64,000 nt of DNA from Eledone cirrhosa (Eukaryota). The notes beneath the pieces were generated by a model. That model saw only the letters and a list, made by a program, of their open reading frames with translations, was not told the origin of the DNA and made no database searches. Below, one piece after another: positions 10,171 to 48,236 of the stretch. The DNA lies in contig OZ024747.1 of assembly GCA_964016885.1 (NCBI GenBank), positions 66,278,001 through 66,342,000 of the forward strand, in the 5' to 3' direction. The translations under genes were made by a program, and so were the position numbers. Position 1 is the first letter of the stretch. Each line of letters starts with the position of its first letter.

Positions 10171-10213
10171 ACGATGCTGACGATAGCTAAGAAGCTTGAA
10201 ACTAGTTCATCGT
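10171..10213 (+). ncRNA. Minimal type I hammerhead ribozyme (family A)
   Basis: acgatg-CTGACGA-t agc taagaa gct t-GAAA-ctag-TT-catcgt; 6-bp stem I, palindromic stem III. Confidence 0.7.
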
Positions 10214-11197
10214 TCTTTTGTCAGTGTTGAACAAAAGGGCAACGATGGTTGCCGAACACTGTACGGCTTAATTCGGGCTGTTTGTTTACAAACAAACCGA
10301 GCATTATAATAAATGTTCGGTAAACCCATACGTACATATATATATATGTGTGCATGTATGTATATATATACATACTACTGTACGTCTGTATACATATATG
10401 TATGTACGTATACATACTTATATTTAAGAATCAGCCGTACTAAGAGTGAGAAATTTCATTTCATTTCATTCTTTTCCATTTATATATATATATATATATA
10501 TATATATATATATATATATATATATATATATATATATATATATGTGTGTGTGTGTGTAGATAAATCTACCAAAAGTTTACGGTAGTGTCCAATCCGTATG
10601 AAGAACTCAATGTAATCCGGATATCATGAAAAGAGAAGATGCATTCAAAAACTACTTTCGGTGAAAATAAATATACCCATCAATTAAATTAATTTATATT
10701 CTTTTCATAGATGTATTTTTTTCACTAACATTCTTATCGTAAAACTTTAGTCACCTTAGATATTTGTATTGGCATTACTATTTTATAACAGCAACTGCTT
10801 GTATACCTTTTACTGACCACCTGACCTATTTTCACCCCTAAAATAAGCTTCAATTACTACTATTTTACCATTTGGCCAATTATTAATTTTCTATTGGTTA
10901 ATTCTAAACTTCTTACCAAACAGACAGAATATATTAGATCTTTGTTGGTTTTATTCAATGAACAAATAAAATTATTTCTGAGGTCAGCATAAGACCTATT
11001 TCTTCCCTAAAATAATCCTTCATTCATAATATTCTTTTCCATCCAAAACTGAAATCTACCTTCCTCTACCCATAATTTAAGGTTCTTCTACTACTATATT
11101 ACTACCTTGACCCTCACTATCTCTCTATTGGTCAATTCAAAACCTGTTCCCAAACAGACCTATTGTATTGAATCTTTGTTTTTTCAATAAACAAATA

Positions 11198-11339
11198 TCA
11201 TTATTTCTGAAGACAGCATATATATGTGTAGGTATGTATATTCCCTCTGATAGTTTGTATAAATATTGTACATAGATCTATAGAATATGCATACCAACTC
11301 TAACACATATATATCCTAGAAACGATCGTAAAATGATGA
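11198..11339 (+). ncRNA. Type I hammerhead ribozyme with ~100-nt stem II (family B)
   Basis: tcattattt-CTGAAGA-cagc atatatatgtg...cacatatatat ccta-GAAA-cgatcg-TA-aaatgatga; 9-bp stem I. Confidence 0.68.
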
Positions 11340-45452: not shown

Positions 45453-45965
45453 ACATACATACATACATACATACATACATACATACATACATACATACAT
45501 ACATACATACATACATATATATATATATATATATATATATATATATATATATATATATATATATATATATATATATATATATATATATATATATATATAT
45601 ATACAAACATAAATTATCGAGAATCGTATTTCGGCCCACGAAATAACGAAAAGCAACCTCCGAGATGTGTGGCAAGTGCTCAATGATTCAGATGAACCAG
45701 AGCTATAACAAACGTTAAAGGCCAAACACACTGAGACGATGGTTAAACAATCATTCGCATAGCCAAAAAAAACGATCAAGTAATTCGGGTCAAACAAATA
45801 AAAAATATCTGTGATATATATATATATATATATATATATATATGTGTGTGTGTGTGTGTGTGTGTGTGTGTGTGTGTGTGTGTGTGTGTGTGTGTGTGTG
45901 TGTGTGTGTGTGTGTGTGTGTGTGTGTGTGTGTGTGTGTGTGTGTGTGTGTGTGTGTCTGTGTGT

Positions 45966-48236
45966 GTGTATAAATCTACCAAAATATACGGTAGTGTCCA
46001 ATCCGTATGAAGAAAGAACTCAATGTAATCCAAATATCATGAAAAGAGAAGATACATTCAAAAATTTTCGATGAAAATCACAGGAAAACAGAGTCAAGAT
46101 AAATTAATAAAAACAATGAATAAAACAAAAAACAAGTTCCTTATATTAAAAAATTCATGATTTTACGATCCTTTCTAGGATATATATGTATGTTGGTATG
46201 TATATCATATAGATCTATGTAAAAATATTACAAACTATCAGAGGAAATACACATACCTTCACATATATATATGCTGTCTTCAGAAACAATGAGATTTGGG
46301 TTATTGAAAGAAAACAACAAAGATTTAATATAATAGGTCTGTTTGGGAACAGGTTTTGAATTGACCAATAGAAAAGTAGTAAGAAGTCAAGTTGATAGAA
46401 TAGTAGTAGTATAAATTTATTTTAGAGGTAGATGAATGCAGACTTATGTTTTGAATGGAAAGAATACTTTGAATGAAAAGAATACTTTGGGGGTGAAAAG
46501 AGGTCAAGCCGATGAAGGGTACACGAAAATTTGATGTTATTAAAGAATAATGTTAAAAACGAAGGAGAGTAAAATTTTAGGGTAAAGGTATTAGTGAGAA
46601 ATACCAATCTTATTTAAAACACAAAGAATTTAGATCTATAACAAGAAATTAAATTAATTGATAGGTATACTTGTAAGGATAAATTTATATTAATTCATAT
46701 GGATGTGATAAATAAGAATTAGATGTTATTAAAGAATGTTGTTAAAAACGAGGGAAAATAAAATTTTGGGATAAGTGTAGTAGTGAGAAATACCAATCTT
46801 ATATAGACTACAAGGAATCTAGATTCATAACAGGAATTTATATGTATACTTTTAGGTATTAAATTTAGGAAAAGAGAGCTGTAAAAGGGAAATAAAATTA
46901 TGAAGTTCTCTGTAGTAAAGTACTAATTATAGGTTAACTAAATTAAAAAAACTAATTATAATAATATGTAAAATATAAGTGTAAGGTGTATATTAATTAG
47001 GTTTATAATATTTGAAAGTTCTTCTAATTCTATAATTGCAAGATATAATTAATTCTTGTCGCTTATTAATAGGATATCCTTAGATTTCATTATTTCAAAA
47101 AGTTCCTAGGAAGCATAATCTACACTCATATCTGTTATTTTGATAAGGGGTGGCCCTTTTGAGCACACTCCAGGTCAGGTTGTAATCAATATTCTTTTTT
47201 CTATAATTATTAATTGTTTCAGCCAAGGATGTTGTATTAGCTAATGCGGCATTTTTAAAACTATGTTTGTGGGTATTAAATCTTACTTTAAATTGGTTAG
47301 ACGTAGCTCCTATATATGAGTAAGTTGAGTCCTTAGTGCTAATTTTACATTTATATACTATGTTATTAATAAGACAATTTCCCTTTAATGGGCAATTTCT
47401 TTTGTTTCTAGAGTTACAACCATTCGTGAATATTATATCAGGGGAGTTAGTCAAATTTGGAGTGGAATTTACTCGACTTGTTATATGTGAAGGAGATGGT
47501 TGTTTGTTGCGGTTTATTTTAGTATTATGGTTGGTTTGATGTGTTGGTGGTATATTCGTGATTATTTTACATTTATATGCGGTGTACGCACTTATATTTT
47601 GTTGTATATTTTTGGTAGTGGAGTAGGAAAATTTGACGGTTGATCTATTTAAAATTTGATGGTATTTATGGTTTGGCGGGAAGTTTTTCTCTAGGATAGT
47701 AAAATATTTTTTAGGGATATTATCTTTAATTTGTAGATTAAATGGAGCATTATACCAAGTAACTCGTCTATTACGGTTTCGATGTTGTTTTTTATATTTA
47801 TACCATGTATCAGGATGTTTACTAAGAGAGTTAGTATTAGTGAATTTATTATATATAGGTTTAGTTAGATTAACTGATTTAGGTGTTTTAGTCTGATTAT
47901 TAGTAATTTTGTTAGTAATGTTATTAACGTATATTGGAGTATTATGATGAATGGTTTTTTGAAAGCTATTATATTTTATGTGAGAAGAAGTAGAGAAATT
48001 AAGTTTTAGGTTGGTATTTCTGGATGTAGTGTGAGTGGCATTTAGGTGTGTGCTTTTCATTTGGTGTTTGTTGGTAATATTGAGTTGTATGTTTGAAGTA
48101 TTATTGGTGCAATGTATATAGACTAATTTGTTTTTGTGGCCGCTTCTAGCTAAAGCTTCGTTATAGAAGGGCGCATTTTTATCGAATACCTCCTGGTTAG
48201 ATGAAAGGTTAGAAATTCTGAGTGAGATGTTATATG
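45966..48236 (-). mobile_element. Second PLE family remnant (thumb + GIY-YIG + 3' UTR)
   Basis: ORF 47095-48236 NISLRISNLSS..VTWYNAPF..CPLKGNC..IVYKC..YIGAT..FKVRFNTH, frameshift near the end; 3' UTR carries HHR family B; palindrome at the 5' break. Confidence 0.82.
46155..46292 (-). ncRNA. Hammerhead family B copy in the PLE 3' UTR
   Basis: Minus strand: tcattgttt-CTGAAGA-cagcatatatatatgtg...catatatatccta-GAAA-ggatcg-TA-aaatcatga; stem III carries a C>G change. Confidence 0.55.

What the first reader, a model, noticed from the sequence alone, without database searches (positions are those of the whole stretch)
10171..46292. One intron holds at least six hammerhead families, several on the pre-mRNA strand
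Seen: HHR motifs at 10171(+), 11198(+), 13464(+), 15966(-), 20237(-), 25592(+), 26575(-), ~29216(-)/30080(+, mutated), 36202(-), 36492(-) and 46155(-). Most have a palindromic stem III (ctag, cgatcg, caattg, ccgg) and sit in repeats next to (TA)n. Known: minimal PLE-type HHRs with palindromic stem III can cleave as dimers. Inference: four intact sense motifs could cut the 46-kb intron co-transcriptionally and release defined linear or circular RNAs, or affect receptor output.
Basis: partly seen in the sequence, partly recalled or inferred. Interest (0 to 1): 0.75.

Follow-up and report, generated by a model that had tools for sequence, protein, structure and literature searches.

The report
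Transposon hammerheads litter an octopus intron
A 46-kb intron of an octopus receptor gene holds a dozen self-cutting 'hammerhead' RNA motifs on both strands, nearly all inside repeated elements, and they are likely leftovers of Penelope-type jumping genes, not a device for cutting the receptor's RNA.

Summary
The motifs are real. Twelve full-core type I hammerheads from seven families lie in one 46,014-nt intron of an octopus GPCR gene.

They belong to mobile elements. Families B and C are the 3' ends of two Hydra-type Penelope-like retrotransposons whose RT/GIY-YIG frames lie beside them; Hydra elements target (TA)n and are already reported in Octopus. Family A is a roughly 420-nt retrozyme-like repeat, very abundant in this genome, and its two copies here fit background.

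There is no sense bias (4 of 12). Each sense motif has a handicap. A1 and A2 have one-pair helix III, and their mixed dimer is predicted unfavourable. C2 lies inside a 2.2-kb, 99.7% inverted repeat. B1 lacks the G10.1-C11.1 pair and is predicted to misfold.

Cleavage was not measured. The intron is long enough that a rate of 0.1/min would matter, so B1 stays open. The scan met a similar Penelope-derived intronic case in another genome. Verdict: ordinary transposon debris; a regulatory role is unlikely.

The parts
2367..2587 (+). GPCR exon (ECL2-TM5) upstream of the intron
   Evidence: 7tm_1 E=0.0011, below the curated cutoff; 89% identical to O. bimaculoides P0001
2588..48601 (+). Single 46,014-nt GT-AG intron of the GPCR gene
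   Evidence: splice sites and phase; homologue joins the two exons directly
48602..48908 (+). GPCR exon (third intracellular loop); further exons 49735-49860 and 53733-53978
10080..10483 (+). Family A copy 1: near-monomer of a ~420-nt repeat; hammerhead 10171-10213, cut after 10207 (GUU; family majority is GUA)
10834..11392 (+). Family B: older partial copy 10834-10991 (5' half of core only), then a 394-nt 3' end with hammerhead 11198-11339, 105-nt helix II region, cut after 11330 (GUA)
11575..11759 (.). Family E truncated copy with inverted arm; both arms lack the 5' core
11939..12127 (.). Family C truncated copy (87% to the young element) with inverted arm; 3' halves only
13174..13717 (+). 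Family A copy 2: about 1.25 units in another circular permutation (95-nt terminal repeat 420 nt apart); hammerhead 13464-13506, cut after 13500 (GUA)
15180..15333 (-).
15338..15480 (+). Family C 3' half (15418-15480) behind a hairpin that replaces its 5' half
15909..16111 (-). Family B copy, cut off just before the core; stem I lost
20225..23542 (-). Hydra-type Penelope-like element: 704-codon RT + GIY-YIG frame 21428-23542, 3' UTR, U3-A8 hammerhead 20237-20330 (cut after 20242), ends in (TA)n
23533..25777 (+). Inverted 5'-truncated arm of the same insertion (99.7% over 2,165 bp); hammerhead 25592-25685, cut after 25680 (GUC), ends in (TA)n
26486..26640 (-). Family E hammerhead 26580-26619, palindromic helix III, weak helix II, cut after 26585 (GUU)
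29095..29331 (-). Family F arm 1, U3-A8 core, GAAA mutated to GCAA
30004..30237 (+). Family F arm 2, inverted twin of arm 1, same core lesion
36202..36266 (-). Family G, single copy in the window, 8-bp stem I, cut after 36210 (AUA)
36492..36527 (-). Family F copy 3, intact U3-A8 core, 3-bp stem I; helix II covaries with arms 1 and 2
36546..36699 (-).
46102..48297 (-). Second, decayed Hydra-type element: GIY-YIG remnant (48225-46999, 34% to the first), ~700-nt 3' UTR, family B hammerhead 46161-46285 with broken helix III, short inverted 5' arm 48206-48297

Best explanation
The hammerheads lie on both strands inside repeated elements in an octopus GPCR intron, two families sit at the 3' ends of Penelope-like retrotransposon frames, and the whole set is likely passive debris of (TA)n-targeting insertions that is predicted to cut little of the receptor pre-mRNA. 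In its own element each motif would cut tandem precursor RNA into unit lengths, mostly as a dimer through the palindromic helix III (from the literature). Reverse transcription often stops early, so most insertions would keep only the 3' end with the ribozyme, often with an inverted arm. Shown: the motifs, the intron, the link of families B and C to RT/GIY-YIG frames, the inverted arms, the high abundance of family A, and no strand bias. Inferred: a PLE origin for families A, E, F, G and H; low cleavage of the four sense copies; no host function.
For: Frame 21428-23542 has RWR, DKT, YRDD, CxCX5C, VIY...YIG, CxxC and CxH, the marks of the Hydra clade. Its nearest Atlas clusters score 0.96-0.99; several carry GIY-YIG (26-50% of members) or RVT_1. 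A second such remnant lies ~700 nt upstream of hammerhead B3. Hydra-1_Obim with (TA)n preference is already listed for O. bimaculoides. Inverted 5'-truncated arms are typical of PLE insertions and occur at 11636, 12021, 15338, 20225/23533, 29095/30004 and 48206. Six of seven families have 2-5 copies in the window. Strand: 4 of 12 and 9 of 20 sense. In DNA contigs of one sample, summed depth over family A is about 2x10^5 times the single-copy flank. Scaled to a neighbouring SINE this predicts 0.8-1.1 copies in the window, against 2 seen (P=0.2-0.3). A1 departs from the family majority at the cut site (89.5% of depth reads A). Mixed dimer +3.4/+3.5 kcal/mol against homodimer -6.8/-6.0. C2 lies within a 2,165-bp inverted repeat. 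A single schistosome min-HHR showed no cleavage; axolotl monomers with the same weak features cut 6% and 22% in an hour. In Xenopus 42-44% of retrozyme copies lie in introns.
Against: All 4 sense full-core motifs pass a descriptor, against 3-4 of 8 antisense (Fisher p=0.08-0.21); the gap vanishes with half copies included (4 of 9 against 4 of 11, p=1.0). All 13-15 insertion events lie in this intron and none in the other 18 kb (post hoc p=0.007-0.014 raw, 0.04-0.06 without young LINEs, 0.08-0.11 per (TA) tract). Background was tested for 1 of 7 families, with a depth figure that the tool says is no copy number. Folding models omit tertiary contacts and can under-rate real hammerheads. With 23-38 kb left to transcribe, k=0.1/min would cut 45-98% of transcripts, and a mussel retrozyme reaches about that rate. 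No PLE frame was found beside families A, E, F, G or H.
Confidence: 0.8

Rival explanations
1. Transposon debris with a side effect: one sense copy (most likely B1, or A2 helped by its loop-loop contact) cuts slowly as a monomer, and the long intron gives it 9-38 minutes, so a real share of pre-mRNA is cut without this being selected for.
For: B1 has a complete core, a 9-bp stem I, a 2-bp helix III and GUA. A2 has the family-majority cut site and an extended stem I. Cut share would be 2-14% at k=0.004/min and 45-98% at 0.1/min. Fast intronic ribozymes lower splicing and slow ones do not (Fong 2009 as cited in PMC10919898).
Against: B1 has C.A at 10.1-11.1, helix III probability 0.05 or less in all 16 contexts, and loses stem I once 100 nt downstream are present. 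A2 has both a one-pair helix III and a U.U at the base of helix II; at the matching axolotl rate 1-4% is cut.
Confidence: 0.14
2. Co-opted regulation: the sense hammerheads are kept to cut the intron co-transcriptionally, release defined RNAs and tune receptor output, like the CPEB3 ribozyme.
For: Four sense motifs pass the descriptor; two share one palindrome 3.3 kb apart, a spacing seen for tandem HHRs around PLE frames; all events fall in this intron.
Against: Multi-copy families, no strand bias, a decayed cut site in A1, an unfavourable mixed dimer, and C2 belongs to a very young insertion (arms 99.7% identical) whose own inverted arm covers it.
Confidence: 0.04
3. The motifs are chance matches in low-complexity DNA.
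For: Rfam shows no hammerhead hit among the rows shown; one probable chance hit appears outside the intron at a looser setting (53424); family G has one copy only.
Against: 6 hits against 0.15 per shuffle; cores kept across copies; helix II and stem I of family F covary; position at PLE 3' ends.
Confidence: 0.02

Closest known systems
Hydra-clade Penelope-like elements, including Hydra-1_Obim of Octopus bimaculoides (Craig et al. 2021, PMC8557442)
   Same: C-terminal GIY-YIG, RW[K/R], DKT and CxCX5C motifs, 3' hammerhead, (TA)n targets, inverted truncated arms.
   Different: Families B and C have hammerheads unlike the one tabulated for Hydra-1_Obim: C has a U3-A8 core and a 6-bp helix III, B a 105-nt helix II region. 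The C element is 3.3 kb, above the usual <3 kb. The protein was compared with Hydra-1_Obim by eye only.
Minimal and small-palindrome hammerheads of metazoan PLE pseudo-LTRs (Cervera and De la Pena 2014, PMC4209133)
   Same: Many divergent families per genome, mostly single scattered motifs, opposite-strand pairs close by, U3-A8 variant, extra base after A9 (family H), palindromic helix III.
   Different: The G10.1-C11.1 pair is replaced in families A (U.U), B (C.A) and G (A-U); family A has canonical helix sizes.
Non-LTR retrozymes of animals (Cervera and De la Pena 2020, PMC7229834; Li et al. 2026, 10.64898/2026.07.22.740005)
   Same: Family A: canonical type I hammerhead, ~420-nt unit, 35-37% GC, self-paired circle predicted (z -7.0), copies in different permutations; one-pair helix III and U.U mismatch as in the two axolotl types.
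   Different: No array with two hammerheads in the window; no RNA evidence; no octopus report found in the searches made.
Functional intronic ribozymes: CPEB3 HDV-like ribozyme (PMC10919898) and amniote ultraconserved intronic hammerheads (title seen in a reference list only)
   Same: Self-cleaving motif in a long intron on the sense strand; cleavage could race splicing.
   Different: Those are conserved loci with measured monomer activity (CPEB3 from passages; the amniote case from recall). These are multi-copy, partly young, partly decayed repeats on both strands.

Membership tests
Type I hammerhead ribozyme | Core CUGANGA (or U3-A8 variant) ... GAAA ... NUH with helices I-III | tested here: met
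   6 strict hits plus B1 and F3 at looser settings; B2, B3, H1 and H2 keep the core but have a broken helix; F1 and F2 lack GAAA
Type I hammerhead ribozyme | Site-specific self-cleavage | not testable with these tools
   needs an in vitro or RNA-end assay
Hydra-clade PLE (family C element) | Single frame with RT and C-terminal GIY-YIG | tested here: met
   YRDD at 331, VIY at 574, YIG at 589 of 704 aa; Atlas neighbours with GIY-YIG/RVT_1; Pfam itself found nothing at E<=0.01
Hydra-clade PLE (family C element) | RWK motif, DKT for DKG, no GxKF/Y | tested here: met
   RWR at 20 (K to R), DKT at 100, no GxK[FY] match
Hydra-clade PLE (family C element) | CxCX5C linker; CxxC and CxH in the endonuclease | tested here: met
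   residues 555-563, 653-656 and 681-683
Hydra-clade PLE (family C element) | CCHH motif absent | tested here: inconclusive
   His and Cys positions listed but not aligned to a CCHH-bearing PLE
Hydra-clade PLE (family C element) | 3' hammerhead and insertion into (TA)n | tested here: met
   hammerhead 1.1 kb after the stop; both outer ends abut (TA)n
Hydra-clade PLE (family C element) | Generally shorter than 3 kb (a tendency in the paper) | tested here: inconclusive
   20225-23542 is 3.3 kb, longer than usual
Hydra-clade PLE (family C element) | Placement in an RT tree with Hydra references | not tested
   reference proteins were seen only as supplement text; no tree was built
Non-LTR retrozyme (family A) | Canonical type I hammerhead in a 150-450-bp, <50% GC non-coding unit | tested here: met
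   420-nt period, GC 0.35-0.37; range
Non-LTR retrozyme (family A) | Tandem array with two or more hammerheads (active form) | tested here: not met
   window holds ~0.95 and ~1.25 units, one hammerhead each; arrays elsewhere could not be seen because the tool skipped 10323-10480. Filed as retrozyme-like only
Non-LTR retrozyme (family A) | Highly self-paired circle | tested here: met
   circular MFE -138.1 against -97.1 +/- 5.8 in 30 shuffles, 69% paired; a TA-rich hairpin contributes
Non-LTR retrozyme (family A) | Expressed as linear and circular monomer RNA | not testable with these tools
   needs RNA data
Non-LTR retrozyme (family A) | Target-site duplication longer than 4 bp, when present | not tested
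   ends run into microsatellite
Host-regulatory intronic ribozyme (CPEB3-like) | Locus-specific, not one of many dispersed copies | tested here: not met
   A, B and C have 2-5 copies in 64 kb; A is very abundant in DNA contigs
Host-regulatory intronic ribozyme (CPEB3-like) | Conserved at the orthologous intron position; monomer rate tuned to splicing | not testable with these tools
   no genome held

The most novel reading that the evidence does not exclude
Octopus carries a very abundant, unreported retrozyme family (A) and many PLE hammerheads, and its very long introns give even slow monomeric sense copies (B1, A2) enough time to cut a sizeable share of pre-mRNA. That would put a ribozyme load on long neural genes such as this receptor, which insertion polymorphism or dsRNA pairing could tune.
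Probability: 0.1. Interest if true: 0.6.

Novelty: new member of a known kind. Interest (0 to 1): 0.2.

Why it matters
As it stands it matters little. Thousands of scattered PLE hammerheads per animal genome are documented, many retrozyme copies lie in introns, and Hydra PLEs are known in Octopus. Two small additions: new hammerhead variants of Hydra elements (a 105-nt helix II form, and a U3-A8 form with a stable helix III), and a retrozyme-like family that looks very abundant in an octopus, for which the searches made found no report. If a sense copy proved fast enough, long-intron genes would be a natural test of whether transposon ribozymes tax host splicing.

Tried and rejected
Whole-genome background: no genome is held for this window, so density and strand bias could not be counted genome-wide.

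RNA: no RNA holder listed; three runs of one sample, none on record as RNA. This says nothing about expression.

Tandem arrays of family A: the tool skipped 10323-10480 as repeats and showed 15 of 242 joints, all over the SINE part, so arrays were not testable. Bins 9960-10049 had no cover, which proves nothing.

Rfam: no hammerhead among the 150 of 154 rows shown; hits are microsatellite look-alikes of miRNA models.

Pfam found no domain in the PLE frames. The repeat finder was swamped by microsatellites, so a masked self-BLAST was used.

A home-made HDV-like descriptor found nothing in the intron and one implausible site at 50924; it is crude and does not exclude such ribozymes.

A constrained two-strand fold crashed and was replaced by direct energy evaluation.

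I found no rates for U17 or U3-A8 cores; that GUU cleaves more slowly than GUA or GUC is recalled, not sourced.

CTGA-N-GA matches at 4660, 17773 and 30552 did not pass the descriptor and were dropped. Weak hits at 19118 and 53424 and two alternative registers of family C were also dropped from the count of 12.
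Full report
SETTING. The window is octopus DNA. The exon at 2367-2587 is 89% identical to an Octopus bimaculoides GPCR named 'somatostatin receptor type 2' by its source (the name is automatic and I did not test the ligand class). Exons lie at 2367-2587, 48602-48908, 49735-49860 and 53733-53978 on the plus strand. The homologue reads straight from the first into the second, so 2588-48601 is one 46,014-nt intron and plus is the pre-mRNA strand. No genome is held for the window.

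A type I descriptor (core CUGANGA or U3-A8, GAAA, NUH, helices I-III) finds 6 motifs in the intron at strict settings, against 0.15 +/- 0.38 in 100 shuffles, maximum 2. Counting every copy with both core boxes gives 12 motifs in seven families. Sense: A1, B1, A2, C2. Antisense: H1, B2, C1, E2, G, F3, H2, B3. Eight more copies have half a motif or a GCAA core. I left four weak descriptor rows out of the 12: 19118, 53424 and two alternative registers of C.

TWO FAMILIES ARE ENDS OF PENELOPE-LIKE ELEMENTS. Family C ends an element at 20225-23542 (minus) with a 704-codon frame. The frame has RWR, DKT, YRDD, CxCX5C, VIY...YIG, CxxC and CxH, which match the description of the Hydra clade (PMC8557442 section 11). 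Pfam found no domain in it; its Atlas neighbours score 0.96-0.99, some with GIY-YIG or RVT_1. The sense motif C2 is the inverted, 5'-truncated arm of the same insertion, 99.7% identical over 2,165 bp, with (TA)n at both outer ends. A second, decayed frame of the same kind (34% identity) lies about 700 nt upstream of hammerhead B3, so B1 and B2 are truncated 3' ends of that family (81-84% identity). The paper says that inverted truncated arms are typical and that almost all Hydra families insert into (TA)n. Its supplement lists Hydra-1_Obim for O. bimaculoides, with a different hammerhead. For E, F, G and H a PLE origin is inferred from short inverted arms (E, F), the U3-A8 core (F) and the extra base after A9 (H), features described for PLE hammerheads. 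No frame was found beside them.

FAMILY A IS RETROZYME-LIKE AND ABUNDANT. A1 (10080-10483) is just under one unit and A2 (13174-13717) about 1.25 units of a 420-nt repeat, in different permutations, 88% alike. The unit is predicted to fold as a self-paired circle (z -7.0). No two-hammerhead array is present, so I do not file it as an active retrozyme. Contigs of three runs from one sample, which may be the window's own source, were laid on 9600-10480. Depth was 5.4-6.8 on a single-copy flank contig and a median 1.24-1.39 million over family A. The tool warns that this is no copy number; allowing for word overlap and haplotype still leaves about 3,300-3,700 copies as a rough floor. Family A has 0.28 of the depth of the neighbouring SINE, which has 3-4 copies in the window. 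That predicts 0.8-1.1 copies of A, and 2 are seen (P=0.2-0.3). This is a rough test of 1 family in 7. At 10207, 89.5% of depth in run X1 reads A, so A1's GUU departs from a GUA majority. No core position was among the 40 difference rows shown; 12 were hidden.

WOULD THE FOUR SENSE MOTIFS CUT THE PRE-mRNA? All of this is predicted, none measured. A1 and A2 have a one-pair helix III and a U.U at the base of helix II. Axolotl monomers with one or the other feature cut 6% and 22% in an hour and much more as dimers (PMC7229834); a single schistosome min-HHR showed no cleavage (PMC4209133). A double hammerhead needs stem I swapped between copies. A1 and A2 differ there, and the mixed dimer comes out 3.4-3.5 kcal/mol worse than two closed monomers, while A2+A2 gains 6.0-6.8 and A1+A1 4.2-4.8. 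This ignores the 3.3-kb loop and tertiary contacts. C2 folds well alone (helix III 0.63-0.90 with 30 nt upstream) but poorly with 200 nt or more upstream (0.09 or less). It is also the exact complement of C1 (99 of 99), at the far end of a hairpin whose upstream arm is made first, so it would likely be zipped into dsRNA. B1 has a full core, a 9-bp stem I and a 2-bp helix III, but C.A in place of G10.1-C11.1, no complete sense partner, and helix III probability of 0.05 or less in all 16 contexts.

RESULTS AGAINST MY READING. The polymerase still has 23-38 kb to go after each site. At 1-3.8 kb/min (the upper value is mammalian; the lower is my assumption) 1-4% is cut at k=0.001/min, 2-14% at 0.004 and 45-98% at 0.1. 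A mussel retrozyme reaches about 0.1. Energy models omit the loop-loop contact and may under-rate B1 and A2. All 4 sense full-core motifs pass a descriptor, against 3-4 of 8 antisense (p=0.08-0.21); with half copies it is 4 of 9 against 4 of 11 (p=1.0). All 13-15 insertion events are in this intron and none in the other 18 kb (post hoc p=0.007-0.11, depending on whether young LINEs and (TA) tracts are allowed for).

STRAND. 4 of 12 full-core motifs (p=0.39) and 9 of 20 copies (p=0.82) are sense. There is neither an excess nor a depletion, on small numbers.

MECHANISM. In the parent elements the hammerhead likely cuts tandem precursor RNA to unit length, as a dimer where helix III is only a palindrome (proposed in PMC4209133). 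Truncated 3' ends then insert into (TA)n, of which the intron has 65 tracts, and decay. The intron is a large target, not a device. I give this 0.80, an unselected side effect of one slow monomer 0.14, co-opted regulation 0.04, and chance 0.02.

WHAT IS KNOWN. Thousands of scattered motifs per genome are reported for schistosome, coelacanth, Xenopus and coral, and 42-44% of Xenopus retrozyme copies overlap introns. Searches for 'octopus' + 'hammerhead ribozyme' and 'cephalopod' + 'retrozyme' returned no octopus retrozyme paper. The library lacks most subscription journals, and I did not open the supplements of the two Cervera papers; the bioRxiv supplement is closed. These may list octopus motifs. 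What I saw of each paper: PMC4209133 parts 1-3 of 4; PMC7229834 parts 2-3 of 6; 10.64898/2026.07.22.740005 part 1 of 5 and passages; PMC8557442 passages, section 11 and supplement search hits; PMC10919898 and PMC3884650 passages; Fong 2009 only as cited.

VERDICT. Real motifs, known kind, new members. Interest 0.2. The open points worth a bench day are the monomer rate of B1 and A2 in native flanks, and whether family A makes circular RNA in octopus.

Noticed in passing
window 26840-27235 (-), 220 nt upstream of hammerhead E2: A 131-codon frame with a CCHC zinc knuckle (Pfam E=0.0013; Atlas leads under 0.9) lies just upstream of the family E hammerhead, next to a LINE 3' piece at 27354-27644. 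It may be one element with a gag-like frame and a 3' hammerhead, or chance neighbours.
   Followed up: partly
window 37615-42474 (+) and 55455-60317 (-): Two copies, 99.8% identical, of a 4.9-kb LINE flanked by (TAA)n; the second has an open 1141-codon RT frame, the first is interrupted by stops. R4/Dong-like is a recalled label.
   Followed up: partly
window 42903-45451 (-) and 61468-64000 (+): Two copies, 96.6% identical, of an endonuclease + RT LINE (RTE-like from recall). With the pair above, they form long inverted repeats on either side of the three downstream GPCR exons.
   Followed up: no
window 20225-25777: A 2.2-kb near-perfect inverted repeat inside the intron is predicted to form long dsRNA in the pre-mRNA, a candidate substrate for A-to-I editing.
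   Followed up: no
window 6946-7138, 7629-7704, 9720-9875, 51421-51611: A SINE-like repeat with four copies in the window and about four times the contig depth of family A.
   Followed up: partly
window 12435-12506 (+): tRNA-like sequence just at the Rfam gathering score (29.9 bits), probably a SINE head or pseudogene.
   Followed up: no
window 36492-36699 (-): Hammerheads of two families (H2 and F3) lie 126 nt apart on one strand; it is unclear whether this is one two-ribozyme element or a nested insertion.
   Followed up: no
window 13998-14123 and 34628-34782: Long imperfect DNA palindromes (86-89%) with no hammerhead; possibly inverted 5' arms of other truncated insertions.
   Followed up: no
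window 17929-18752 and 36769-37275: A further dispersed repeat family (up to 95% identity, also at 54696-54776 and 55166-55392), not classified.
   Followed up: no
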